Shown piece after piece: positions 41,205 through 56,731 of a stretch of DNA of 64,000 nucleotides; within the stretch, counting starts at the first letter, position 1, and each line of letters starts with the position of its first letter. The position numbers were made by a program, and so were the translations under genes. The notes below the pieces were generated by a model. The model was not told where the DNA came from. It saw nothing but the letters and a program-made list of their open reading frames with translations, and did not search any database. This DNA comes from Desulfobacterales bacterium (lineage in GTDB: Bacteria > Desulfobacterota > Desulfobacteria > Desulfobacterales > UBA5852): assembly GCA_963674755.2 (NCBI GenBank), contig CAXXVS010000002.1, positions 96,001-160,000 on the forward strand, given 5' to 3'.

Positions 41205-42038
41205 ATGATGGAAATTCGACAGGCCGTTCATCCTGAACATGCCGCCATGTTTGCAACCGAAGACTTGCGAGCCCACTTCCTCATCGAGGATCTCTTCCGG
41301 CCGGGAGAGACCCGGATGGTCTACAGCTATTACGATCGGTTGATTGTGGCGGGCGTCGTGCCCCAGGACAAGTTGGAGCTCGCTGTGGACGAGAAGATCA
41401 TCGGCGCCTCCCATCTTCTCGAGCGCCGCGAGATGGGCATCATCAACATCGGCGGCGAAGGGACCCTTACCGTGGACGGTACGGACTACCCCATGGCCCC
41501 GCGGGACGGGCTCTACGTCGGCATGGGCCGCCGGGAGATTATTTTCCGGAGTGCGGATGCCGCCCGTCCGGCCAAGTTTTATGTCAACTGCGCTCCGGCC
41601 CACAAGACCTACCCCACCGTCAAGGTCGCTTTTGCCGAAGCGGATCCCATCCATCTGGGAGAGATGGAGAACAGCAACAAACGCACGATCCGCAAATATT
41701 TTCACCCCGAGGGCGTGCGCAGCTGCCAGCTGGTGATGGGCATGACCACCCTGGAGAAGGGATGCGTCTGGAACACCATGCCGGTTCATACCCACCCCCG
41801 CCGCATGGAAGCCTACCTCTACTTCGACATGGCCGAAGACAATGTGGTGTTTCATTTCATGGGCGAGCCCGCGGAAACCCGGCATCTGGTGGTGCGCAAC
41901 GAACAGGCGGTGCTTTCCCCCAGCTGGTCGATCCACTCCGGTTCAGGCACGGGCAGTTACACCTTTATCTGGGGCATGGTGGGGGAGAACCAGACGTTTA
42001 CGGATATGGATGGGGTGGCGATGACCGACCTCCGGTGA
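41205..42038 (+). CDS. kduI: 4-deoxy-L-threo-5-hexosulose-uronate ketol-isomerase
   Basis: LERREMGIINIGG, WNTMPVHTHPRRMEAY, SPSWSIHSG, FIWGMVGENQ. Confidence 0.97.
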   Translation: MMEIRQAVHPEHAAMFATEDLRAHFLIEDLFRPGETRMVYSYYDRLIVAGVVPQDKLELAVDEKIIGASHLLERREMGIINIGGEGTLTVDGTDYPMAPRDGLYVGMGRREIIFRSADAARPAKFYVNCAPAHKTYPTVKVAFAEADPIHLGEMENSNKRTIRKYFHPEGVRSCQLVMGMTTLEKGCVWNTMPVHTHPRRMEAYLYFDMAEDNVVFHFMGEPAETRHLVVRNEQAVLSPSWSIHSGSGTGSYTFIWGMVGENQTFTDMDGVAMTDLR

Positions 42039-42453
42039 GCCGGCTGGGATGGCGTCTTTCGGCCCCCGGCGGCGTTCTCGCCCCTTTGCCGTCCTCGACG
42101 CAGCCGGGCTGCGCCTGCGGGGTCAAAAGGGGCTGCGGCCTTGCCGGAGACCGAAATCCACCACCCCAGCCGGCTCACGGGTGGTGGTAATGGCGGCGAC
42201 ATCTTTCGGTCCCCGGGGGCCTTTTCGCCCCTTTGCCGTCCTCGAGGCAGCCGGGCTGCGCCTGCGGGGTCAAAAGGGGCTGCGGCCTTGCCGGAGACCG
42301 AAATCCACCACCCCAGCCGGCTCACGGGTAGTGGTAATGGCGATGGCATCTTTCGGCCCCCGGGGGCCTTTTCGCCCCTTTGCTGTCCTCGAGGCAGCCG
42401 GGCTGCGCCTGCGGGGTCAAAGGGGGCTGCGGCCTTGTTGGAGAACAGAATCT
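42035..42453 (+). repeat. three tandem family 1 units (147-bp period), copies D1-D3
   Basis: D1 42035-42178 has a perfect 14-bp TIR GTGAGCCGGCTGGG; CCGAAATCCA recurs at 42151 and 42298; the third unit is truncated at copy E. Confidence 0.9.
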
Positions 42454-42599
42454 TTAGAACGTATCTCAAAATTAAGATCAGGGTTCCTGACAAGGCGTGG
42501 GACGGCGAAAAAGCGGAGCATACACGAAGTATGTGAGCATTTTGAGCCGGCTCACAACGCCGTCAGGGGCACTTAGATTATTTTTGAGATACGTTCTAA
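42454..42599 (-). repeat. palindromic element family 1, copy E (reverse orientation)
   Basis: Perfect 18-bp TIR TTAGAACGTATCTCAAAA...TTTTGAGATACGTTCTAA; CAAGGC, hairpin CATACACGAAGTATG, AACGCC. Confidence 0.85.
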
Positions 42600-42634
42600 C
42601 CGTGACAGCGGTTTCCCAGGGGGAAGGAGAAGCC

Positions 42635-43396
42635 ATGATTTTGAAGCAATTTGATCTTACCGGGAAGGTGGCCATCGTGACCGGGAGCAGCACCGGTCTG
42701 GGGGCCGGAATGGCGCTGGGTCTGGCCGAGGCCGGGGCGGATATCGTCGGGGTCTACAATCGGGACGCTCCGGAAAACGCGGGCCAGATCGAAGCATTGG
42801 GGCGCCGTTTCGTGGGGGTTCAGGCCGACCTGAGCACCACCGCCCCGCTGGCGAAGATCGTTGCGCAAGCCGTGGAAGCGCTTGGCCGCGTGGACATCCT
42901 GGTCAACAATGCCGGTATCATCAGGCGCAACAAGGCCCTCGATTTTTCCGAAGAGGACTGGGACGACGTGATGAACGTCAACCTGAAATCCCTGTTCTTT
43001 CTCTCCCAGGCAGCGGCCCGGCAGTTCGTCAAACAGGAATCCGGCGGCAAGATTATCAATATCGCTTCTATGCTGTCTTTCCAGGGGGGCATCCTGGTGC
43101 CCTCCTACACGGCCAGCAAAAGCGGCGTGATGGGGCTTACCCGTCTGCTGGCCTGCGAGTGGGCCCCCCACGGCATCAACGTCAATGCCATCGCCCCGGG
43201 CTACATGGCCACCCGCAACACCCGGCCCATCCAGGACGATCCGGTGCGCAACACGCAGATCCTGGCCCGCATCCCGGCCGGCCGCTGGGGAACGCCCGAA
43301 GATCTTCAAGGCACGGTGGTCTTTCTGGCTTCGGCCGCATCGGACTATATGCAGGGGTATACGATTGCGGTGGATGGGGGCTGGCTGGCACGCTAG
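42635..43396 (+). CDS. kduD: 2-dehydro-3-deoxy-D-gluconate 5-dehydrogenase
   Basis: NNAGIIRR, IASMLSFQGGILVPSYTASKS, RIPAGRWG, VDGGWLAR. Confidence 0.96.
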   Translation: MILKQFDLTGKVAIVTGSSTGLGAGMALGLAEAGADIVGVYNRDAPENAGQIEALGRRFVGVQADLSTTAPLAKIVAQAVEALGRVDILVNNAGIIRRNKALDFSEEDWDDVMNVNLKSLFFLSQAAARQFVKQESGGKIINIASMLSFQGGILVPSYTASKSGVMGLTRLLACEWAPHGINVNAIAPGYMATRNTRPIQDDPVRNTQILARIPAGRWGTPEDLQGTVVFLASAASDYMQGYTIAVDGGWLAR

Positions 43397-43398
43397 CC

Positions 43399-43542
43399 CG
43401 TGTCCGTCCAGAAATGGTCTTTTTTGCCTCGGTCGGCGTTTACTTCGGGTTTAGCGGCTGCAACGTACGAAAGTACGCTTCGCCGCAACCCCTCGTGTGG
43501 CCTTGACCAAAACAAAAAATCCTTATTTCTGAACCGGACACG
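43399..43542 (+). repeat. palindromic element family 1, copy F
   Basis: TIR CGTGTCCGTCCAGAAAT...ATTTCTGAACCGGACACG; GGCGTT, hairpin CGTACGAAAGTACG, GCCTTG; between convergent genes. Confidence 0.8.
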
Positions 43543-43571
43543 TTCGGTTTTGTTCGGAATCATATCCCTTT

Positions 43572-44723
43572 TTAGATGTCGAGATCTTCCAGAGCCACCC
43601 ATTTGCCGAGCTTTTCGGACAGCAGGGCGGCTTCGGCCAGTTGCACGCCTTTGGCGCCTTCCCGCAGATTCCAGGGAAAGGGCTCATCCAACACGACATG
43701 CCGCAGGAAATGCTCCCACTGGGCCCGGAAGGGATTTAAGTAGTCTTCCTGGTCAGGCACCCGGCCCCATTGGTCGCGGTAGGGCTCCGTGTTCGGGCGT
43801 TCGGGATCCCAGACCGGCCGGGGCGTTTGACCGTAATGCTGGAGCGCGCATTCCCGCAGGCCGGCCGAAGCCGATCCCTGGGTGCCGTCCACTTTGACGG
43901 TCAACAGGTCGTCGCGATGGACGCGTTCGGCCCAGGAGCAGGAGACACGGGCCACGATGTCTTCTTCCAGCCGCAGGAGAAGGTAGGCCGCATCTTCCAC
44001 GTCGCAGCGGTAGCGCCGGCCGTTTTCGTCGATTCGTTCCGGGATGTGGGTAGCCATGTGGCAGAACACCTGGCGGATGGGGGCGATAAGATTGTCCAGG
44101 ATGCAGCGGATGTGGGGCATCATGTCCAGGACGATGCCGCCCTGGGTTTCCTGGCGGTAGTTCCAACTGGGCCGCTGGGCCGGAACCGTGTGGCCCTCGA
44201 ATATCCAGTAGCCGAACTCGATCTGGACCGACAGGATCCGGCCGAAAAAGCCGTTTTCGACCAGGCGCCGGAGTTTGATCAGACCCGGGAGCCAGAGTTT
44301 GTCCTGCACTACTCCATGTTTGAGGCCCTTGTCCCGGCAGGCCCGGTAGAGGGCCATGGCGGTATCGGTGTCGGTGGCCGTGGGTTTTTCGCAATAGATG
44401 TGTTTGCCGGCCTGGATGGCCTGCTGGATGGCCTCGGCCCGCAGGCCGGTGACCTGGGCGTCGAAATAGACCGGGTAGGCGTCGTTGTCGAGGTAGGGGG
44501 CGAGCGCCGTGGCGACCGCGGTCACCCCGGACTGGCGGGCCAGGGCGGCCAGTTTTTCCGGGTTGCGCCCGATGAGGACCGGATCGGGCAGAATGACTTC
44601 GCCGGGCTGGAGCACCAACCCGCCTTCGTTGCGGATAGCGGCAATGGCACGCAGCAGGTGCTGGCGGGTCCCCATGCGGCCGGTAACGCCGTTCATGATG
44701 ATGCCCAGGCGGTGTTCTTTCAT
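43572..44723 (-). CDS. Gfo/Idh/MocA-family oxidoreductase
   Basis: IIMNGVTGRMG, HIYCEKP, VVQDKLWLPG, QRPSWNYR..GGIVLDM. Confidence 0.9.
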   Translation of the reverse strand: MKEHRLGIIMNGVTGRMGTRQHLLRAIAAIRNEGGLVLQPGEVILPDPVLIGRNPEKLAALARQSGVTAVATALAPYLDNDAYPVYFDAQVTGLRAEAIQQAIQAGKHIYCEKPTATDTDTAMALYRACRDKGLKHGVVQDKLWLPGLIKLRRLVENGFFGRILSVQIEFGYWIFEGHTVPAQRPSWNYRQETQGGIVLDMMPHIRCILDNLIAPIRQVFCHMATHIPERIDENGRRYRCDVEDAAYLLLRLEEDIVARVSCSWAERVHRDDLLTVKVDGTQGSASAGLRECALQHYGQTPRPVWDPERPNTEPYRDQWGRVPDQEDYLNPFRAQWEHFLRHVVLDEPFPWNLREGAKGVQLAEAALLSEKLGKWVALEDLDI

Positions 44724-44772
44724 GGCGTCTCGCTTCCTGAAGTGGGGGTCCGGGTTTCCTTCCTGGGCCATG

Positions 44773-45870
44773 CTATCGGAAGGGCCTGCGGGCCGGAGTC
44801 CGTTTCAAGGGAAGATGAACCGGGCGTCCGCCGGCCAGGGCCGAGCGGTAGATGGCCAGAATGATTTCGATGGACTTGCGGCCCTCGGGGCCGTCCACCA
44901 TGGGGGCGGATCCTTTTTTGAGCGCTTTCACCATATCCTCGAAGGCCCTCTGGTGGGGCACGAAATCGATGGCCGCCGGGTCGGCGGCACCGGCGCCGGG
45001 GTCGTCCGCTGGGGCAAACTTTGCCCGGATCTTGCGGTCCGCAGCGTGCTTGCGGCGGAATTCCCATACGGTAAAGCTGTTGTCCTGCATGAAGATCGAC
45101 CCGTCCGACCCGCACATGTGGACTTCGGCCGGGTTGCCCGCAGGCGCGTAGCAGGCCGTGGAACCCTCGATGACCCCCAGGGCACCGTTTTTGAATTTAA
45201 GGACGGCCACGGCATTGTCTTCGGTTTCGATGCGCACATGACTGCGGCGATCGGCAAAGCCGCAGACCCATTCGACGTCTCCGGCCAGGTAGTAAAGCAG
45301 GTCGATGGTGTGGATGGACTGATTGATGAGGGCGCCGCCCCCATCCAGCTTCCAGGTCCCGCGCCAGGCCCCGCTGTCATAGTAGTCCTGGGTGCGGTAC
45401 CATTTGATGTAGGCGTCCGCCAGGCTGATGCGCCCCAGCCGCCCGGCCGCCACGGCCTTTTTGAACTGCTGGGTGGCCTCCAGGAAACGGCGCTGGAAAA
45501 TGCCTGCCAGCATGACGCCGTTTTCACGACAGGCCCGGATCATGCGGTCCACCCGTTCGAGGGTGACTTCCAACGGTTTTTCGCAGATGACGTGCTTGCC
45601 GGCCCGGGCCGCCTGTTCGGCCGGTTCCAGGTGCGCCCCGCTGGGGGTGGCGATGGCCACGATGTCCAACGCCGGGTCGGCCAGGAAGGCCTGATAATCC
45701 GAATAGGCGCTGCAGCCATAACGATCGGCCAGGCGCTGGGCATTGGTCGGCTGGCGTGAAAACACGCCGACCAGGCGGCCGCCCCGCATGGCGCTGATGG
45801 CCTGGGCATGGAAATCGGCCACCATGCCGCAGCCGACGATCCCGATGCCGAAATTGTTTTTCTTCGCCAT
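44773..45870 (-). CDS. Gfo/Idh/MocA-family oxidoreductase
   Basis: GIVGCG, TPSGAH, HVICEKP, WRGTWKLDGGGALINQSIH. Confidence 0.92.
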   Translation of the reverse strand: MAKKNNFGIGIVGCGMVADFHAQAISAMRGGRLVGVFSRQPTNAQRLADRYGCSAYSDYQAFLADPALDIVAIATPSGAHLEPAEQAARAGKHVICEKPLEVTLERVDRMIRACRENGVMLAGIFQRRFLEATQQFKKAVAAGRLGRISLADAYIKWYRTQDYYDSGAWRGTWKLDGGGALINQSIHTIDLLYYLAGDVEWVCGFADRRSHVRIETEDNAVAVLKFKNGALGVIEGSTACYAPAGNPAEVHMCGSDGSIFMQDNSFTVWEFRRKHAADRKIRAKFAPADDPGAGAADPAAIDFVPHQRAFEDMVKALKKGSAPMVDGPEGRKSIEIILAIYRSALAGGRPVHLPLKRTPARRPFR

Positions 45871-46111
45871 GGGGGACCTCCTTTTCAGGGGATGCGAGGG
45901 GGGAAGCAGAATCGTGACGGCGCCTGTCAGTGCTGCCTGGAATTGTGAAACATGAATGGTTACTACTGTATCGCCGGGGGCGCTGTCAATACGACCTGAA
46001 AAGGGTTGTCAAGACCGAAAGCGTGTGCTTTTGGAGGTTATGGATGGATAGACCGGCGGGCATCGGATGATCCCGCCCGTGTTGGGAATGGGATCGAAAG
46101 GGGGAACGGCT

Positions 46112-47104
46112 ATGCACACGCTCAAATGGGGTATTATCGGATGCGGCGATATCGTCCGGCGCCGGGTGGCGCCGGCCCTGGCAACGCTGCCCGGCTGCGA
46201 AATCGCGGCCGTGGCCCGCCGCAATCCGGACGGCCTCGAGGATTGCTGCCGTGAACTGCAGGCCGGACGGGGGCATGCCGACTGGCGGGACCTGGTGCAG
46301 GACGCCGCCCTCGATGCGGTGTATATCGCCACACCGGTTAGCGTCCATTGCGAACAGGTCCTTGGGGCCCTGGCAAACGGCAAGCATGTGCTCTGCGAAA
46401 AGCCTTTGGGCATGGATGCGGCCGAGTGCCGGCAAATGCTGGCGGCCGGCCGGCAGGGCGCGGCCGCGCTCGGCGTGGCCTATTACCGCCACTACTATCC
46501 CGCGGTTCTCAGGCTGAAGGAGATCATGGCGTCGGGAGAGATCGGCGATGTTCTTTCCATGACCCTGACCGCCTGCGAGACATTTCTTCCGGAGGAGACC
46601 CATCCCCGCCGCTGGATTCTGGACAAATCCACGGCGGGCGGGGGCAGCCTGATGGATTTCGGCTGCCATCGCATCGAAATCCTGCTGCATCTTCTGGGCC
46701 GGGAAACCGCGGCCGGCGGGGTCTGGGGCAACGTTTACAACGATCACGACGTGGAGGATACCGCCACGCTGGCCGTTCGTTTCGAAACCGGCGCCACGGG
46801 CGTCGTGAGCGTCACACGGGGCGGCACCCTCGAACGGGATGTCGTCCAGGTTCAGGGAACCCGGGGCATGGCGCAGGTCGATCATCTGAACGGCGGTTGG
46901 CTGACCGTGACCGGTGATGCCGGGACCCGGCAGGAGACCCTGCCCTGCCACGCCAACCCCCACCTCCCTCTGATCGAGGCCTTCTGTCGTGCGATTGGGG
47001 AAAAGCGGCCGCCCGACGTCGGCGCCGAAACCGGCTGGCGGGTCCAGCGCATCATCGACGCCGTCTACCGGAATACCGCCTTCACCGACGGAGACATGTC
47101 ATGA
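46112..47104 (+). CDS. Gfo/Idh/MocA-family oxidoreductase
   Basis: WGIIGCG, YIATP, HVLCEKP, GGGSLMDFGCH. Confidence 0.92.
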   Translation: MHTLKWGIIGCGDIVRRRVAPALATLPGCEIAAVARRNPDGLEDCCRELQAGRGHADWRDLVQDAALDAVYIATPVSVHCEQVLGALANGKHVLCEKPLGMDAAECRQMLAAGRQGAAALGVAYYRHYYPAVLRLKEIMASGEIGDVLSMTLTACETFLPEETHPRRWILDKSTAGGGSLMDFGCHRIEILLHLLGRETAAGGVWGNVYNDHDVEDTATLAVRFETGATGVVSVTRGGTLERDVVQVQGTRGMAQVDHLNGGWLTVTGDAGTRQETLPCHANPHLPLIEAFCRAIGEKRPPDVGAETGWRVQRIIDAVYRNTAFTDGDMS

Positions 47105-48105
47105 TACGCATTCCCCTGGACGTCATGCAGGATGTTTTGGGCCGCACCCTGGCCCAGGTGGGTTTCGAAGAAGAGCGCGCTTTCCGCTGCGCATCGATTT
47201 TTGTCGAGAACAGTGCCGTGGGCGTGTCCTCCCACGGGTTGAACCGTTTCCCCCAATTTGTCGATTTCGTCCGTCGGGGCATCGTCGATCCCACGGCCGC
47301 AATATCCTGCGTGGTCCGCCTGGGCGCCTGGGAACAATGGGACGGACATCTGGGGCCCGGCCCCCTCAATGCGTTCGACGCCACCCAAAGGGCCATGGCC
47401 CTGGCCCGGCAATACGGCATCGGCTGTGTGGGGCTGAAGCAGACCAATCATTGGATGCGGGGCGGCTATTACGGCTGGATGGCGGCGGAAACGGGGCTGG
47501 CCCTGATGGCCTGGACCAACACCACCCCCAACATGCCCCCCTGGGGCGCCCGGGACTGCCGTCTGGGCAACAACCCCCTCGTGCTGGCCGTGCCGCGCAC
47601 AAGCGGCCCGGTGGTTCTGGACATGGCCATGAGCCAGTTTTCATACGGCCGGCTCGACAACACTCTGCGGGAGGGGAGGGCGCTGCCCGTGCCGGGCGGC
47701 TACGATGCGAACGGCCAACTGACCACGGACCCCGGGGACATCCTGCGCAGCCAGCGCGTCCTGCCCATCGGCTTCTGGAAGGGGGCCGGCCTGTCCCTGC
47801 TGCTGGACAGCTGGGCCGCCCTGGTCTCCGGGGGAGATGCCACCTGCCGCATCGGCCGCCGGGAGCCCGAATACGGCGTCTCCCAGGTATACATCGCGGT
47901 CGATGTCGCCCGTATCGGCGGCGAGGAAACCGTCGAGGGGGTGATGGCGGCGATTGTCGCCGATCTGCACGCGGCCCAGGCCGAGGAGGGTGAGGCCGGG
48001 GTGCGCTATCCCGGCGAACGGGTTAGCCGGCTGCGCCGGGAGAGCGTGGCGAAAGGGGTTCCGGTGGACGAGGCCATCTGGGAGCGGGTGCGGGCCGGAC
48101 TATAG
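47101..48105 (+). CDS. yiaK: 3-dehydro-L-gulonate 2-dehydrogenase (2,3-diketo-L-gulonate reductase), Ldh_2 family
   Basis: SHGLNRFP, NHWMRGG.YGW, WTN, MPPWG..LGNNP, DMAMSQFSYG, LPIGFWKG. Confidence 0.92.
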   Translation: MIRIPLDVMQDVLGRTLAQVGFEEERAFRCASIFVENSAVGVSSHGLNRFPQFVDFVRRGIVDPTAAISCVVRLGAWEQWDGHLGPGPLNAFDATQRAMALARQYGIGCVGLKQTNHWMRGGYYGWMAAETGLALMAWTNTTPNMPPWGARDCRLGNNPLVLAVPRTSGPVVLDMAMSQFSYGRLDNTLREGRALPVPGGYDANGQLTTDPGDILRSQRVLPIGFWKGAGLSLLLDSWAALVSGGDATCRIGRREPEYGVSQVYIAVDVARIGGEETVEGVMAAIVADLHAAQAEEGEAGVRYPGERVSRLRRESVAKGVPVDEAIWERVRAGL

Positions 48106-48137: not shown

Positions 48138-48659
48138 TCAGCTGCCCAGGTGGTCGATGAGCCTTCCGCTGGTTTGGCGCAGGTACTGGCTCATCTGCTT
48201 GGCGATCTTGAGGACCAGGGTGATGCCGATGCCCGGCAGGGCCTCATTGAGGCTTTGGAACTGCTCGGCCGTCATGACGAACAGGAGAGCGTCCGAACCG
48301 GTGACGGCCGACGCCGAACGCGGTTCCCCGTCGATGATTGACATCTCGCCGATGGTTTTACCCGGTCCCAGGGACGTGATTTTTTTGGGCGTGCGGTGGG
48401 AATCGAATTTGATCACATCCACCCGGCCCTTGACGATCAGGACCATATAGGCGTTTTTTTCGCCCTCGCAGAACAGGACGGTATCCTGGGAAACCCCGTA
48501 GACGCTCATGTAGCGGACGAGTTTTTTGATCCGCTCGAAACTGAATTCCATGGACCAGCGGGTGGCATCGAGCAGTTCGCTTTTTGCGATAATCGAAAGA
48601 TCTTGCCGCTCCAGGGCGAGCAACCCCGGTGCATTCTTCAACTCTTGGGCCGAGAGCAT
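48138..48659 (-). CDS. stand-alone cyclic-nucleotide-binding domain protein
   Basis: LFCEGE, G.V.V, GEMSIIDGEPRSAS phosphate-binding cassette; no C-terminal HTH. Confidence 0.88.
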   Translation of the reverse strand: MLSAQELKNAPGLLALERQDLSIIAKSELLDATRWSMEFSFERIKKLVRYMSVYGVSQDTVLFCEGEKNAYMVLIVKGRVDVIKFDSHRTPKKITSLGPGKTIGEMSIIDGEPRSASAVTGSDALLFVMTAEQFQSLNEALPGIGITLVLKIAKQMSQYLRQTSGRLIDHLGS

Positions 48660-48870: not shown

Positions 48871-49464
48871 CTATGCTTTGGGGCGTGAAATGGATCGCAA
48901 GAAGCGATCCGTCAGGACTTGCTCCACTTCGGGCGTGATGTGCTCCGGCATTTCGGCCATGGCGTGGCGCACGGCGATGTCGATCATTTCGTCGCGCAGG
49001 TTGTGGCAGGCTTCCCGGTGGCGCGTTTCGACCAGCTGGCGGGCTTTGAGCAGGCGTCTTTCCGCTTCCTGCCGGGCCTCCGCGATAATCGTACGACGTT
49101 CTTCCTCGCCTTCGGCCACCATGCGCCGGTGCAGATCGGCGGCCCTTTGCTGGCGGTCCTCCAGCAGGGCGCGCAGGGATCGGATCTCTTCTTCGATACG
49201 GCCTTTCTGGCCTTCCAGTTTTTCCATCTTATCCTTGATCGCATCCCGCCGGGCGTTCAGGAAGTTTCCCAAGGGCTGGCGAAGCAGTTTGATGAGCACG
49301 GTCGTCAGGATAACAAAATTGACCCACATCATGACGGTGTCATAGGTTGGACGCCAGCCGCCGGCGGCCAATGCGGCCGGGGCCTGCAGCAGGTCCAACG
49401 CGGCCGCCGCCGTGGCCAGCCCCGCGGTCATGACGACCTTTTGGTTGACGGTCCGCACGGTCAA
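48871..49464 (-). CDS. atpF: ATP synthase Fo subunit b
   Basis: WVNFVIL..KLLRQPLGNFLNARRDAI TM plus coiled coil, with a hydrophobic N-terminal extension. Confidence 0.88.
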   Translation of the reverse strand: MTVRTVNQKVVMTAGLATAAAALDLLQAPAALAAGGWRPTYDTVMMWVNFVILTTVLIKLLRQPLGNFLNARRDAIKDKMEKLEGQKGRIEEEIRSLRALLEDRQQRAADLHRRMVAEGEEERRTIIAEARQEAERRLLKARQLVETRHREACHNLRDEMIDIAVRHAMAEMPEHITPEVEQVLTDRFLRSISRPKA

Positions 49465-49910
49465 GGCCTCCGATCGAGCAGGTGCTGGATGATGGCTGTG
49501 GTCAGCTGCGCCGCCTCGGCTTCGGTCTGCCGGCGCGCAACCATCAGCGAGGTCTTGAGTTGCTTTTCAGTCGCCAGATACTGATGCTTGATGTCGCTCA
49601 GGGCCTGGTCGACCAACCGGTCGGCTTCCTGCCGCCCCGTCTGCCGCAGTTCTTCGACGGTGCGGCGGGCCGTTGCCTGCAACCGTCGTTCTTCCGCCCG
49701 GGTCTCCCTGAGAAGGGTCCCCATCTCCTCCTTCAATCGAAGGATCGTCCGCCGGAGATCGGCGAAATGGTCTTCCCGCTCCGCCAGGTTGCGGCGCACC
49801 GGCCGGAACATGATCCGGTTGATCAGGAACAAAAAGACGAGAAAGATGATCATCTGAACCCAGAGGGTTTCATTGATCGTGATCAAGGCGTTGGTTTTGA
49901 TGATCTCCAT
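49461..49910 (-). CDS. ATP synthase Fo subunit b'
   Basis: INETLWVQMIIFLVFLFLINRIMFRPV...ERE, followed by coiled coil. Confidence 0.88.
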   Translation of the reverse strand: MEIIKTNALITINETLWVQMIIFLVFLFLINRIMFRPVRRNLAEREDHFADLRRTILRLKEEMGTLLRETRAEERRLQATARRTVEELRQTGRQEADRLVDQALSDIKHQYLATEKQLKTSLMVARRQTEAEAAQLTTAIIQHLLDRRP

Positions 49911-49961
49911 GGAGGTCTTGCGCTTCCTTGTCTCCCCTTACTCGGGGGGTGGGCCGCGATG

Positions 49962-50210
49962 CTACACGACGAACAGGAGCAGCAGCGCGATCACCAGGGA
50001 GTAGATCCCCGTGGATTCGGCCACCGCCTGCCCGACCAGCATGGTGCGGGTCAACAGCCCGGCTTCCTTGGGATTGCGGCCGATGGCTTCGCAGGCCTTC
50101 GCCGCTGTCATGCCTTCCCCGACACCGGGACCGATGGCACCCAGCCCCATGGAAATGCCGGCCCCCAAAAGCGCCGCCGCTTTGACCAGATCTGCTCCTT
50201 CAATCGCCAT
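49962..50210 (-). CDS. atpE: ATP synthase Fo subunit c, single hairpin, Na+-type two-carboxylate motif
   Basis: GLGAIGPGVGEG, RNP loop, GQAVAESTGIY. Confidence 0.96.
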   Translation of the reverse strand: MAIEGADLVKAAALLGAGISMGLGAIGPGVGEGMTAAKACEAIGRNPKEAGLLTRTMLVGQAVAESTGIYSLVIALLLLFVV

Positions 50211-50260
50211 TGGATGTCTCCTTTGCCGGTTCGATCAGGTTTTTTGTTGAGTGCCCTCCG

Positions 50261-51244
50261 TCAGACGACAAAAATCAGGGCCAGGCTGACCACCATGGCA
50301 TAGATGGCCGTGGACTGGGATACGGCCTGCCCCACCAGCATGATGCGCATCAGATCGCCGGCATATTCGATGCGCCGCGCCACCCAGCGCACCGCCCCTT
50401 CGGCGGTGGCCCCGTTGCCAATGCCGGGACCGATGCCGCCCAGCCCCATGCACAGGCCGGCGCTGAACAGCGCGACCGAAGCACTCAGGGTCGAGGATGC
50501 CGGGAAGGTGCGGAACATCAGGATGAAACTCACTAGAAGCCCGAACACGGACGGCGTCTGGGCCACGGCCTGGCCCACCAGCATGGTCGTTGTGACGGCC
50601 GTGGCGGTTTCCGGCTGGCGGGCGATCCCTTCACAGCTGGCGCCGGCGGCCAGGCCGCCGCCATAGCCGGAGCCGATGGCGGCCAGCCCCGTGCTCAATC
50701 CGGCCCCGATCAGGGCGGCGCCGGTGGGAAAGGCCGCCACCCCGGCCGTGGGTTTGAACAGCAGGATCAGGGATACCACCATGGCAAAGATGGCCGGGGT
50801 CTGGCAGACCGCCGTGCCGATCAGCATATTGGTGGTGATGCGCCCGGAAATGGCGGGTTGGCGTGCGATGGCCAGGCAGGACCGTCCGGCCGGCACACCG
50901 GCGCCGACCCCGGAGCCGATGGCCCCGAACCCCATGCACAGCCCGGCGGCCAGGAGGGAGGCGGCTTTGACGATCCCCGGATCCGGAATGTCCATGAACA
51001 GCAGAAGGATGGCGATGACCAGAGAAAAGATCGATGCCGACTCGGAGATGGCCTGCCCCACCAGCATGTTCTTGACGATGTCGCCGGCATGCTCCCGGTC
51101 GCGGGCCATGGCCTCGGAGGCCTGGCTGGCGGTATAGCCTTCGCCGGTGGCCGCCCCGATGGCCCCGAAGCCCATGGCGACGGCCCCGCCGATGTAGGCT
51201 GCGGTCTGTGTTAAGGACAGGTTGTCGAAGGCCGGCAGGCTCAT
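50261..51244 (-). CDS. atpE: quadruplicated ATP synthase c subunit (327 aa, four helical hairpins)
   Basis: Four tandem c repeats, each with a Gly-rich inner helix and AR-x loop; outer helices GQAISESASIF, GTAVCQTPAIF, GQAVAQTPSVF, GQAVSQSTAIY. ATG 51244 overlaps the atpB stop (ATGA). Confidence 0.93.
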   Translation of the reverse strand: MSLPAFDNLSLTQTAAYIGGAVAMGFGAIGAATGEGYTASQASEAMARDREHAGDIVKNMLVGQAISESASIFSLVIAILLLFMDIPDPGIVKAASLLAAGLCMGFGAIGSGVGAGVPAGRSCLAIARQPAISGRITTNMLIGTAVCQTPAIFAMVVSLILLFKPTAGVAAFPTGAALIGAGLSTGLAAIGSGYGGGLAAGASCEGIARQPETATAVTTTMLVGQAVAQTPSVFGLLVSFILMFRTFPASSTLSASVALFSAGLCMGLGGIGPGIGNGATAEGAVRWVARRIEYAGDLMRIMLVGQAVSQSTAIYAMVVSLALIFVV

Positions 51245-51915
51245 TTCAATTGTACCGAAATATAGACTACTGTGAGCATGGTAAAAACGAAGGCCTGGAT
51301 GGTTCCCACGAAAAGCCCGAAAAAGGCGTTCAGGAACGGCGGCAACAGGATGCTGAAGCACAGGTGGGAGACCACCAGAATAATGATGGCGCCGCCCATG
51401 ATGTTGCCAAAAAGACGGAAGGAGATGGAAACGATCTTGGCCAGTTCGCCGATGACATTCAAGGGCATCAGGAAAAAAACCGGTTCGAAATAGGATTTGA
51501 TATAGAGTTTAAAGCCTTTCTCTTTGATGCCCACGTAATGGGCGATGACAAATCCCAGAATTCCCAGGCTCAGGGGTGTGTTGAGATCCCGGGAGGGTTC
51601 TTCGAGGTGGGGCAGGATCCCCAGCCAGTTGGATAGCAGAAGGAAGATGAATAAAGCGCAGATCAGGGGGGCGTAGGTCTTGGCGTGGGTTTTCCCCAGG
51701 GCCTCTTCGGTCAGGCCGTAGAACTGGGTCAGCACCGCTTCGCCGATGATCTGAAACGGTCCGGGCAGAAGGCCCTTTTTGCGGCCGGCGGCAAAGCCCA
51801 AGGATAGGGCCAAAAGGACGACGATAGCGGTCATCACCAGCACTTCCAGGTTAATGGTGACCATGTAGCCGGGCAGCGGTATGATCAGCTGATGAATTTC
51901 ACCCAATCGATCCAA
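51241..51915 (-). CDS. atpB: ATP synthase Fo subunit a
   Basis: FIFLLLSNWLG, PLNVIGELAK, SISFRLFGNI (essential Arg), IQAFVFTML; TTG start at 51915. Confidence 0.95.
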   Translation of the reverse strand: MDRLGEIHQLIIPLPGYMVTINLEVLVMTAIVVLLALSLGFAAGRKKGLLPGPFQIIGEAVLTQFYGLTEEALGKTHAKTYAPLICALFIFLLLSNWLGILPHLEEPSRDLNTPLSLGILGFVIAHYVGIKEKGFKLYIKSYFEPVFFLMPLNVIGELAKIVSISFRLFGNIMGGAIIILVVSHLCFSILLPPFLNAFFGLFVGTIQAFVFTMLTVVYISVQLK

Positions 51916-51928
51916 AGCGCGTGCCTCT

Positions 51929-52315
51929 TCAGGTGAGGGGTGACTTGGTGCCGCGTACGAGGCTGAAGACAGAATCCAGGATGATGCAGACGGGCACCAT
52001 GAATAACCCGGCCACCGTTGACGGCAGATCAACCGCGGGCCACTTCACCGCGACAACCACCGGGGCGGCCCAGAGCAGATAGCGTCCCAATTGGGCGGCC
52101 AGAGTCAGCAGGGCTCCCCGTCGGTGGTTGCCCGTCAGCTTCCGGGTCAGGCTGTGGCCCATCAGAACGAAATTGAGGCAACTGAACAGGCTGCCCAGCA
52201 AAATTCCCCGGGTCGCCGTCGGCCAGCCGGCCATGTAGACGCCCAGGCCGACCAGGATCGCGGCCGTGAGGGCGCCACCGCAATAACGCCGCTGAAAGGG
52301 TTTAATCGCTTCCAT
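51929..52315 (-). CDS. atpI: ATP synthase protein I (four TM)
   Basis: GILLGSLFSCLNF, GRYLL, four hydrophobic segments, directly upstream of atpB. Confidence 0.82.
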   Translation of the reverse strand: MEAIKPFQRRYCGGALTAAILVGLGVYMAGWPTATRGILLGSLFSCLNFVLMGHSLTRKLTGNHRRGALLTLAAQLGRYLLWAAPVVVAVKWPAVDLPSTVAGLFMVPVCIILDSVFSLVRGTKSPLT

Positions 52316-52568
52316 GGTCGGTCCCTGAATCCGAATCTGATGCGTCTGCAAAGGTTTCCATGATTTGCCGATAGGACACCACGCCCCCGCCGATGATGCC
52401 GAACAGGGTCAGCAGAACCGTCAGGATGCCGCGGCTGCCGAACCAGCGATCCAGATAGCGTCCGGCGAAAAAGCAGGCGACGATGCAGCCGGCCATGGTG
52501 AGTCCGACTTGCAGGACGATGGCGAGGTTTTCGGCCCAGGGCCGTTGTTGCTTGTAGTCCAGAACCAT
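52302..52568 (-). CDS. AtpZ/AtpQ (ATPase gene1) family protein
   Basis: VGLTMAGCI..AGRYLDRWFG..LFGIIGG two-TM pattern; first gene of the Fo operon. Confidence 0.82.
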   Translation of the reverse strand: MVLDYKQQRPWAENLAIVLQVGLTMAGCIVACFFAGRYLDRWFGSRGILTVLLTLFGIIGGGVVSYRQIMETFADASDSDSGTDHGSD

Positions 52569-52884: not shown

Positions 52885-53505
52885 ATGGCCGTTCTCACCA
52901 TTTCGCGCATGTTTGGGACCGGGGCCGAGGCTTTGGGAGAAACCATCGCGAAACGCCTGGGCTACACTTTTTATCACAACGAACTGATTCAGCTGGTAGC
53001 CAGGAAGGCCAAAGTATCTACGGATTGGGTCAAGTCCATGGAAAAGGAGGCGGGCGGTAAATTCCAGAAGCTCATGACGTCTCTGGTTCCCAAAAGCCTG
53101 GTGGACAGGGTCCTCGATTCGGAGCGCGGCTATCTGGATGAAGAGATCTACACGGACATGCTGCAGCACATCATCACCAAGATCGCAGAGACCGGCGATG
53201 CCGTCATCCTCGGCCGCGGCGGACAGTATATCCTGAAGGACCGCGCGGATACCTACCATATTCTTCTCGTGGCGGATCTCGACCACCGGGTGAAGTATGT
53301 ACAGGCGCAGTACGACCTGATCCCCAAGCAGGCCATGCTGCTGGTGGCTATGGAAGACAAGCGGCGCGTGCAGCTCTACCGGAAATTCGGCAGGGTCGAT
53401 TATGACCAGACGGATCACTACCACGTGGTGTTCAATATGGCGCGCATGGAAATGGAAAGGGCCTGCGATATGCTCTGCACCCTGCTGGGAAGCTGCCGAT
53501 TCTGA
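52885..53505 (+). CDS. cytidylate-kinase-like family protein
   Basis: LTISRMFGTGAE, VILGRGG, D..R..Y motifs; CAGGAGG RBS. Confidence 0.88.
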   Translation: MAVLTISRMFGTGAEALGETIAKRLGYTFYHNELIQLVARKAKVSTDWVKSMEKEAGGKFQKLMTSLVPKSLVDRVLDSERGYLDEEIYTDMLQHIITKIAETGDAVILGRGGQYILKDRADTYHILLVADLDHRVKYVQAQYDLIPKQAMLLVAMEDKRRVQLYRKFGRVDYDQTDHYHVVFNMARMEMERACDMLCTLLGSCRF

Positions 53506-55616: not shown

Positions 55617-56731
55617 TTAACCCGGCAATAATAGTTACCAATTATGCTGCGTAAGCAATCTTAGGATGTTTAAAGTATTTTGCAACGCGCCTTGGCAATT
55701 TTTGTAGCATGCGAAGGTGGCTTAGCGCCTTGCTCTTTAATTGGGATTTTGACCTGGCTGGCGCACCGGAATGAACCCCGGCCTTCAAATCACAGTTCAA
55801 ATATTCATCTGGATTCAATTCGGGCGAATACGAGGGCAAAAAGAACAGTTCGATTTTGTCTTTATGCTGATCGATCCAGTCTTTGACAATATGACTATGA
55901 TGAACTCGCAGATTGTCCAAAATCAAAAATACCTTTTTGTCGGCATCTTTTATCAATCGTTTGCAAAATTTGATAAAGGTCTGCGAGTTCATTGTCTGAT
56001 TGTAGATCATGAAACGGACTTTACCCTGATTGGTAATCGAAGAGATCAGGTTGACCCTTTCCTTTTTTGCATTGAGCCGTATGGCAGGCGTTTTTCCTCT
56101 TGGCGCATAGCTTCTGCCATGCTGACTGTCGCTGCAAAGCCCGGTCTCATCCCCCCAATTGATCTCAGCGTCTTCTTTCTTGGCCCTGACTGCAATGGCG
56201 GGATACTCTTCGTCAAGCCATTTTTGAACCAATTTTGGGTTCTGTTCATAGGCTCTGCGCAAAGGCTTTTGGGGGGTAAAGCCCCAGCGGTTGAGGTACT
56301 CACCTACGGTGCGAATCGGCATATTGATGGAAAAAAGCTGCGTGATCAACTGCTGGACAGCCCGACGGGTCCAAAGGGCAAATGGGAACTTGAGTTGATC
56401 AGGGGTTTTATCGGTAATTACCTTTTTCAGCTGCTTTTCCTGCTCTGGATCAAGCGTTCGGCAACTACCGGTTTTGCGCCCCCGTTTCTTTGCCTTAATC
56501 GCATTTTGACCGCCTTTTTCGTAGGCTTTAAATATCTTGCACGCATTAGTGTAGTGAATGCCAACAACCTCACCGATCTCTTTGTAAGTTTTGCCAGCTT
56601 TGCGAAGCCTTACAACTTGTCGGCGCAGTTGCTCTTGAACCTCTGGTTTAAGCTTTCTGGTGTCTGTTGTTTCCATGCGAAGTACTATACCATACTTCGC
56701 AGTATTTTGGTATGAATAATCGCCGGGTTAA
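55617..56731 (-). mobile_element. IS630-family insertion sequence, apparently intact
   Basis: Terminal IRs TTAACCCGGC(AATAAT)/(ATAATC)GCCGGGTTAA, TA on both flanks (55615-16, 56732-33), one uninterrupted transposase ORF, lower GC. Confidence 0.93.
55642..56676 (-). CDS. IS630 transposase
   Basis: HTH region, WGFTPQKP, WGDET, ILDNL, LPSYSPELNPDE (DDE triad). Confidence 0.96.
   Translation of the reverse strand: METTDTRKLKPEVQEQLRRQVVRLRKAGKTYKEIGEVVGIHYTNACKIFKAYEKGGQNAIKAKKRGRKTGSCRTLDPEQEKQLKKVITDKTPDQLKFPFALWTRRAVQQLITQLFSINMPIRTVGEYLNRWGFTPQKPLRRAYEQNPKLVQKWLDEEYPAIAVRAKKEDAEINWGDETGLCSDSQHGRSYAPRGKTPAIRLNAKKERVNLISSITNQGKVRFMIYNQTMNSQTFIKFCKRLIKDADKKVFLILDNLRVHHSHIVKDWIDQHKDKIELFFLPSYSPELNPDEYLNCDLKAGVHSGAPARSKSQLKSKALSHLRMLQKLPRRVAKYFKHPKIAYAA

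What the first reader, a model, noticed from the sequence alone, without database searches (positions are those of the whole stretch)
48871..52568. Complete Fo-only operon (atpZ/Q-I-a-c4x-c-b'-b) without any F1 gene
Seen: all membrane and stalk subunits are tightly coupled, with overlapping stops and starts, and the flanking genes are unrelated (no delta, alpha, gamma, beta or epsilon). Established: deltaproteobacterial atp genes are often split, but b'/b usually travel with the F1 genes, and N-ATPase operons include F1 genes. Inference: a swappable alternative Fo motor that borrows the housekeeping F1 to change the coupling ion (Na+) or gear ratio.
Basis: partly seen in the sequence, partly recalled or inferred. 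Interest (0 to 1): 0.75.

Follow-up and report, generated by a model that had tools for sequence, protein, structure and literature searches.

The report
Second sodium motor shares one F1
This bacterium has two different membrane motors for ATP synthase but only one catalytic head, and the extra motor looks sodium-driven with a rotor part in which three of four ion sites are blanked, so the cell may switch the ion and gear ratio of its ATP synthase by changing motors.

Summary
Confirmed. Window 48871-52568 is an intact atpZ-I-a-c4x-c-b'-b cluster with no F1 gene. The 97%-complete genome has one F1 operon (with its own b'/b), an ordinary a-c set and this one; no N- or V-type ATPase was found. 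The single c has the full Na+ motif (E32, E65-S-T, Y70); the ordinary c does not. In c4x only hairpin 1 keeps Glu and only hairpin 4 keeps Ser-Thr-Tyr: a spacer for a mixed ring, as in Acetobacterium woodii c1, but with three empty sites. 121 of 251 class genomes carry it; 112 of these have more a than gamma genes, against 7 of 130 without it. In deeper lineages the module runs straight into a standard F1 operon; five such genomes checked have one F1 and one b'/b pair for two a-c sets. Best reading: a Na+-coupled second Fo sharing the housekeeping F1 (0.7); assembly and direction are unproven. A 2014 paper noted an Fo-only duplicate in one species; its spread, F1 sharing and the spacer I did not find in print. 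This scan met the same rotor gene before in other genomes.

The parts
52302..52568 (-). atpZ/AtpQ-like small membrane protein (88 aa)
   Evidence: PF09527 54.7 bits over cut-off 26.6; 36% identical to the housekeeping copy
51929..52315 (-). atpI, c-ring assembly factor (128 aa)
   Evidence: PF03899
51241..51915 (-). subunit a (224 aa, TTG start); stator Arg167 in RLFGN kept; no acid or His at the position where all housekeeping a proteins have one
   Evidence: PF00119, TIGR01131 over cut-off; 31% identical to housekeeping a
50261..51244 (-). four-hairpin c subunit (327 aa): hairpin 1 E35/E68 with Phe for Tyr; hairpins 2 and 3 QTP..F; hairpin 4 Q-S311-T312..Y315; one predicted Na+ site
   Evidence: four PF00137 stretches; motifs; AlphaFold pLDDT 95.3, four helical hairpins; best PDB match 4BEM_J
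49962..50210 (-). single-hairpin c subunit (82 aa) with full Na+ motif E32, E65, S66, T67, Y70
   Evidence: closest solved chains are 4BEM, 1YCE (labelled sodium ion specific) and 3ZK1
49461..49910 (-). subunit b' (149 aa)
   Evidence: PF00430; 31% identical to housekeeping b'
48871..49464 (-). subunit b (197 aa, TTG start), full length, C-terminal end alike to housekeeping b
   Evidence: PF00430

Best explanation
The cluster encodes a complete second Fo: assembly factors Z and I, stator a, a mixed rotor of single c plus the four-hairpin c4x, and its own b'/b stalk. It docks on the cell's only F1 (delta-alpha-gamma-beta-epsilon), so one pool of catalytic heads serves an ordinary, probably H+-coupled motor and this Na+-coupled one. 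Each ion site forms between the Glu pair of one hairpin and the Ser/Thr/Tyr of the hairpin before it. c4x keeps the Glu half at its start and the Ser-Thr-Tyr half at its end, so it fits between normal c subunits and removes three sites in a row, lowering ions per turn (2.7 instead of 3.7 per ATP if the ring has 11 hairpins and one c4x). Shown: genes, counts, motifs, layouts in relatives. Inferred: Na+ selectivity, mixed ring, F1 sharing. Least certain is direction. I lean to an ATP-driven Na+ pump that is hard to run backwards (about 55:45 against a Na+-driven synthase), because the empty arc of 96-144 degrees is about one whole catalytic step.
For: One F1 and two a genes in the genome; no AtpR and no V/A subunit I found. 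Of 121 class genomes with the multi-c gene, 112 have more a than gamma genes; of 130 without it, 7 do. 94 of the 121 have exactly one gamma; of the 23 with two or more, 18 have a gamma over the N-ATPase cut-off. 0 of 80 related loci have an F1 gene in the fetched flanks. In 9 of 29 module-bearing genomes outside the order, b is followed directly by delta and, where the contig allows, alpha-gamma-beta-epsilon. In 5 of 5 of these checked there is one gamma and one b'/b pair for two a-c sets. That F1 looks native: its labelled neighbours are deltaproteobacterial and RpoB splits the same genomes off. Na+ motif EST..Y in 76 of 76 single c genes of the first 80 loci, against ESL..Y in the housekeeping c genes read. 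Half-site rule holds at 554 of 561 hairpins in 142 distinct multi-c proteins. Predicted b'/b plus housekeeping delta: weak support, score 0.60 against best control 0.01, runs agree in at least 96% of contacts, partner pLDDT at least 83; the mark was reached by 116 of 157 solved and 2 of 215 mismatched pairs, but at 0.60 or under by only 18 of 157 and by both mismatches, and b-delta complexes are solved, so it may show likeness only. Two RnfD/NqrB-family genes point to Na+ energetics.
Against: No biochemical or expression evidence. The module's b and b' diverge faster (28-40% identity) than housekeeping b/b' (46-55%) in four matched genome pairs. 9 of 121 module genomes show no surplus of a over gamma, and 7 hairpins break the half-site rule. 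Two genomes (G024, G169) have the module without the multi-c gene, so c4x is not required. Related genomes are not independent, and the module was found in none of the 50 genomes of one family. Three empty sites in a row have no solved precedent among the PDB hits. The ion assignment rests on a motif rule; a 2026 paper could not resolve ion specificity for related c subunits (PMC13343851).
Confidence: 0.7

Rival explanations
1. F1-independent membrane complex: the a/c/b set works alone as a Na+ channel or exchanger, or c4x has a role outside a rotating ring.
For: No F1 gene nearby in 80 of 80 loci; faster-diverging stalk; a long empty arc is awkward for a coupled rotor.
Against: In 9 of 29 more distant genomes the module is one operon with F1. 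Both stalk genes are kept full length with the conserved C-terminal end. R-[QN]-P-like loops are kept in c and in hairpins 1-3 of most c4x (that this loop binds gamma/epsilon is recalled).
Confidence: 0.12
2. It shares F1 but is H+-coupled or promiscuous, so only the gear ratio changes.
For: PMC7911925 states that Na+ ATP synthases examined can also move H+; PMC13343851 could not assign specificity.
Against: Full E..E[ST][ST]xxY motif as defined in bioRxiv 2026.10.01.756066, closest to solved Na+ rings. Subunit a lacks the acid/His that 23 of 23 housekeeping a proteins carry (65 of 66 module a proteins have S/A/T).
Confidence: 0.1
3. A dedicated F1 exists but is missing from the assembly.
For: The genome is in 3 contigs, 97.4% complete; 4 of 121 module genomes lack even one gamma hit, so gaps do occur.
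Against: 94 of 121 module genomes have exactly one gamma, single-contig ones included (G047; G267 outside the order); extra gammas are mostly N-type.
Confidence: 0.03
4. Decaying remnant of a horizontally acquired operon that lost its F1 half.
For: Its a and c are only 31% and 52% identical to the housekeeping copies; the D. oleovorans duplicate was proposed as a transfer from Thermotogae (PMC4154653).
Against: No stop inside any of the 121 best multi-c matches; single c 80-100% and a 59-97% identical across the first 80 loci; motifs strictly kept.
Confidence: 0.05

Closest known systems
Acetobacterium woodii / Clostridium aceticum Na+ F1Fo with hybrid rotor (c1 plus c2/3; PDB 4BEM)
   Same: Two kinds of c gene in one operon; the fused one keeps Glu in its first hairpin and Gln in its last, with Phe for Tyr in the first; best sequence and fold match (E 3e-24; rmsd 1.4 A over 155 columns).
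   Different: c1 has two hairpins and one missing site; here four hairpins and three missing sites (two to six hairpins in relatives). The acetogen operons encode the whole enzyme (10-11 genes); here no F1 gene is in the operon and a second Fo exists.
Ectopic duplicated Fo (a-c-b'-b) of Desulfococcus oleovorans (Koumandou and Kossida 2014, PMC4154653)
   Same: Fo-only duplicate in a deltaproteobacterial sulfate reducer, with divergent a/c and deltaproteobacterial b; very probably the same module (inference; I did not test a named copy).
   Different: Treated there as a one-species duplication or transfer; the passages read say nothing of a multi-hairpin c, Na+ or F1 sharing (supplements not opened).
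N-ATPase (Dibrova 2010, PMC2881411)
   Same: Second copy beside the ordinary enzyme; c with Glu in both helices and ESTxxY; atpQ-like gene.
   Different: No F1 genes, no atpR, b'/b pair without a delta-like extension; scores far below the N-type cut-offs.
Multiple atpE copies in Desulfatiglandales (PMC13343851, 2026)
   Same: Two to four atpE copies noted and suggested to modulate ion binding.
   Different: No operon, half-site or F1-count analysis in the passages read; ion left unresolved.

Membership tests
F-type Fo sector | subunit a with stator Arg, c with helix-2 carboxylate, b stalk | tested here: met
Na+-coupled F-type c subunit | E/Q in helix 1 and E[STQ][STQ]xxY in helix 2 | tested here: met
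   E32, E65-S66-T67, Y70; rule
Na+-coupled F-type c subunit | measured Na+ dependence or transport | not testable with these tools
   needs biochemistry
A. woodii-type hybrid rotor | fused c gene beside a single c gene, Glu in first hairpin, none in last | tested here: met
A. woodii-type hybrid rotor | fused subunit of two hairpins (one missing site) | tested here: not met
   four hairpins, three missing sites
A. woodii-type hybrid rotor | F1 genes in the same operon | tested here: not met
   absent here; present in 9 of 29 distant relatives
A. woodii-type hybrid rotor | both c types in one ring | not testable with these tools
   only inferred from the half-site rule
N-ATPase | atpDCQRBEFAG operon with own F1 genes | tested here: not met
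N-ATPase | atpR gene | tested here: not met
   PF12966 not found in the genome; control rings in M. acetivorans
N-ATPase | N-type a, b, c profiles (TIGR03306, 03321, 03322) | tested here: not met
   118.6 of 302.1, 34 of 224.7 and 66.3 of 130.85 bits
N-ATPase | Glu in both c helices with ESTxxY | tested here: met
V/A-type ATPase | subunit I (PF01496) and A/B head | tested here: not met

The most novel reading that the evidence does not exclude
Many Desulfobacterota run a two-motor, one-head ATP synthase: a single F1 is fitted either to an H+ motor or to a Na+ motor whose ring carries a spacer blanking one to five consecutive ion sites. The spacer length sets the gear and may make the Na+ form effectively one-way, giving a regulated H+/Na+ gearbox.
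Probability: 0.5. Interest if true: 0.85.

Novelty: new variant of a known kind. Interest (0 to 1): 0.64.

Why it matters
Ion type and ions per ATP are normally fixed properties of an organism's ATP synthase and enter every energy budget of sulfate reducers and syntrophs living near the thermodynamic limit. A second motor on the same F1 in about half of the sampled genomes of this class would make both switchable. The natural series of rings with one to five consecutive empty sites is also a ready test of how large a gap a rotary motor can cross, and in which direction.

Tried and rejected
1) Module as the only Fo: four genomes showed only the module's a. In G213 the housekeeping a-c falls in a contig break and in G218 the whole region is absent; G161 and G212 were not checked. 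The rate (4 of 121) matches a-less assemblies among the rest (6 of 130). Rejected as evidence. 2) Foreign F1 in the fused operons: their alpha, beta, gamma and delta fall outside the other housekeeping F1, but RpoB splits the same genomes off, so vertical descent explains it. The first RpoB tree took wrong frames for three rows and was redone. 3) Expression: one metatranscriptome gave short low-depth contigs on b, c4x, Z/I and on flanking genes alike; contigs cannot show transcription; inconclusive. 4) Promoter/terminator scan: nothing upstream of atpZ, terminators at chance level. 5) The helix-1 column was off by one and was redone. 6) A fixed functional neighbour: none; the commonest are cytidylate-kinase-like (65 of 146), a response regulator (26), a universal stress protein (26) and haem genes (about 20). 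7) Published proteomes: no mention in the main text of PMC5109826 or in the one supplement held for PMC11887813. 8) The b'+b tree has no outgroup and weak support at the key nodes; I draw no order of events from it.
Full report
Observation. The minus strand of 48871-52568 holds seven intact genes, atpZ-atpI-a-c4x-c-b'-b. Three junctions overlap and three have gaps of 13-51 nt. The flanks are a cNMP-binding gene and a cytidylate-kinase-like gene. DNA contigs from three studies match the stretch.

Genome inventory. G000 is 6.7 Mb in 3 contigs, 97.4% complete; its close relatives are labelled Desulfobacterales or deltaproteobacteria. It has one gamma, one delta, and one alpha and one beta; the other three PF00006 hits are FliI and two Rho. 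These F1 genes form b'-b-delta-alpha-gamma-beta-epsilon at C3:2782018-2788127. There are two a genes: this cluster and an ordinary Z-I-a-c at C2:248482-250282. There are four b-type genes. No V/A subunit I and no AtpR were found. So there are two Fo sets, each with a stalk available, and one F1.

Ion sites. The single c has E32, E65, S66, T67 and Y70; its closest solved chains are 4BEM, 1YCE and 3ZK1 (that 1YCE and 3ZK1 are from Ilyobacter and Fusobacterium is recalled). This meets the Na+ rule in bioRxiv 10.64898/2026.10.01.756066 (passages). The housekeeping c reads Q..ESL..Y, one ligand short. Module a proteins have Ser, Ala or Thr in 65 of 66 cases at the position where 23 of 23 housekeeping a proteins have Glu, Asp or His (its equivalence to E. 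coli E219 is recalled). c4x folds as four hairpins (pLDDT 95.3) and matches A. woodii c1 best by sequence and fold. Hairpin 1 keeps both Glu but has Phe for Tyr; hairpins 2 and 3 read QTP..F; hairpin 4 has Gln but keeps Ser-Thr..Tyr. Among 142 distinct multi-c proteins from 146 loci, the first hairpin has Glu in 142 and the last has Tyr in 142, and a hairpin has Tyr if and only if the next has Glu in 554 of 561 cases. Patterns (E = Glu, q = none): Eqqq 83, EqqE 23, Eqq 9 (one cut by a contig end), Eqqqq 6, EqEE 6, EqqqE 5, EqE 5, Eq 2, Eqqqqq 1, EqEq 1, EE 1. The set is biased to close relatives. This is what a spacer built to sit among normal c subunits should look like (inference). For rings of 10-15 hairpins, one c4x removes one ion per ATP and leaves an arc of 144-96 degrees between sites; the real ring size is unknown.

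Relatives. The multi-c gene (E below 1e-40) is in 121 of 251 class genomes, own included, and in 29 of 290 phylum genomes outside the order. None of the 80 best loci has an F1 gene in up to 8 kb of flank, though many contigs are shorter. a minus gamma count: with the gene, +1 in 104, +2 or more in 8, 0 in 9; without it, 0 in 113, negative in 10, +1 in 7. Two of those seven carry the module without multi-c and three lack a gamma hit. 94 of the 121 have one gamma. Of the 23 with more, 18 have an N-ATPase gamma over the cut-off, two are just under it, and three have none. In the 29 outside genomes a exceeds gamma in 27 and equals it in 2. Kin are not independent, so I give no p-value.

Reciprocal layouts. 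In 9 of the 29 the module's b runs directly into delta and, where the contig allows, alpha-gamma-beta-epsilon (L155, L157, L159, L160, L165, L167, L170, L171, L172); L161 ends right after b. In G528 (L151) the module is followed by a second b'-b and then delta-alpha-gamma. In these ten genomes the ordinary Z-I-a-c lies elsewhere with no b beside it (L177-L186). In the five checked (G267, G288, G369, G500, G427) there is one b'/b pair over the cut-off and one gamma. There two a-c motors have only one stalk and one head. That F1 appears native. The same motor is thus wired to a standard deltaproteobacterial F1 in cis in some lineages and stands alone with its own stalk in others, which is the best genomic argument for sharing. 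In this genome b keeps a C-terminal end alike to housekeeping b. A predicted b'/b-delta complex passed weakly (0.60, best control 0.01; at 0.60 or under only 18 of 157 solved pairs and both passing mismatches of 215; likeness to solved stalks may explain it). Against: module b/b' diverge faster than housekeeping b/b' in four matched pairs (28-40% against 46-55%).

Mechanism. Best reading (0.7): a Na+-coupled second Fo with a mixed ring that uses the housekeeping F1. Direction is open. For synthesis: A. woodii's hybrid enzyme makes ATP at about 90 mV, and fewer sites suit low phosphorylation potentials (PMC9171764, passages); a Na+-pumping Rnf is reported as constitutive in Desulfobacteraceae (PMC11887813, passages), and this genome has two RnfD/NqrB-family genes. 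For pumping: an empty arc close to a whole 120-degree catalytic step, and longer in five- and six-hairpin relatives, is hard to cross when ions drive the ring but easy when F1 does (my inference). I lean 55:45 to a pump. Rivals: F1-independent complex 0.12, H+ or promiscuous coupling 0.10, remnant 0.05, missed F1 0.03.

What is known. Koumandou and Kossida 2014 (PMC4154653, passages; supplements not opened) list a fully duplicated ectopic Fo in Desulfococcus oleovorans, with a and c grouping with Thermotogae and b within deltaproteobacteria, as a one-species case. PMC13343851 (passages) notes two to four atpE copies in Desulfatiglandales. Hybrid rotors are described for A. woodii and C. aceticum (PMC7911925, PMC7793690, passages). 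It is not an N-ATPase as defined in PMC2881411 (first third read). PMC2702500, PMC3543383 and PMC5109826 (passages) do not describe it. Ten searches found no description of F1 sharing or of a four-hairpin F-type spacer. Brandt and Muller 2015 and Matthies 2014 are not held (titles only, from reference lists); the former surveys hybrid rotors and may list such genes. Subscription journals are largely missing from the library. Eight earlier notes of this scan describe the same rotor gene in other genomes, one marked as partly fallen on later check; they are not independent support, and my reading was noted before opening them.

Verdict. Real, conserved and widespread; a new variant of the hybrid-rotor Na+ F-type enzyme, with an apparently undescribed two-motor, one-head arrangement that rests on genomics alone. 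Interest 0.64.

Noticed in passing
window 52885-53505 (+); L008-L176: Cytidylate-kinase-like genes (PF13189) lie near the module in 65 of 146 loci, often on both sides; possibly a regulator.
   Followed up: partly
window 48138-48659 (-): cNMP-binding protein 211 nt downstream on the same strand; linked to the module only in close relatives (L008, L009, L116).
   Followed up: partly
L109, L110: The module without any multi-hairpin c gene in G024 and G169.
   Followed up: partly
L099, L101, L102, L175: The multi-c gene has moved within or beside the operon in some genomes; L175 has a two-hairpin c with both sites intact.
   Followed up: no
L104, L105, L092, L093: G100 and G250 each carry two copies of the module; in G250 one has four and the other five hairpins.
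   Followed up: no
proteins P0052-P0103, P0013; L255: A wider set of about 320-aa four-hairpin c proteins at about 30% identity with an alternating E/Q/E/D pattern, and a relative labelled Candidatus Hydrogenedentota whose near match sits in an a-c4x-c-b' cluster.
   Followed up: partly
G000:C2:658618-659232 and 2190945-2191559: Two Rho-family genes in the genome.
   Followed up: no
window 55642-56676 (-): IS630 transposase at the start of a lower-GC stretch (48-49%) 3 kb upstream of the operon.
   Followed up: no
window 41205-48105: Cluster that looks like sugar-acid catabolism: KduI-like and KduD-like ORFs (by eye), three Gfo/Idh/MocA-like oxidoreductases (by eye) and a 3-dehydro-L-gulonate 2-dehydrogenase.
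   Followed up: no
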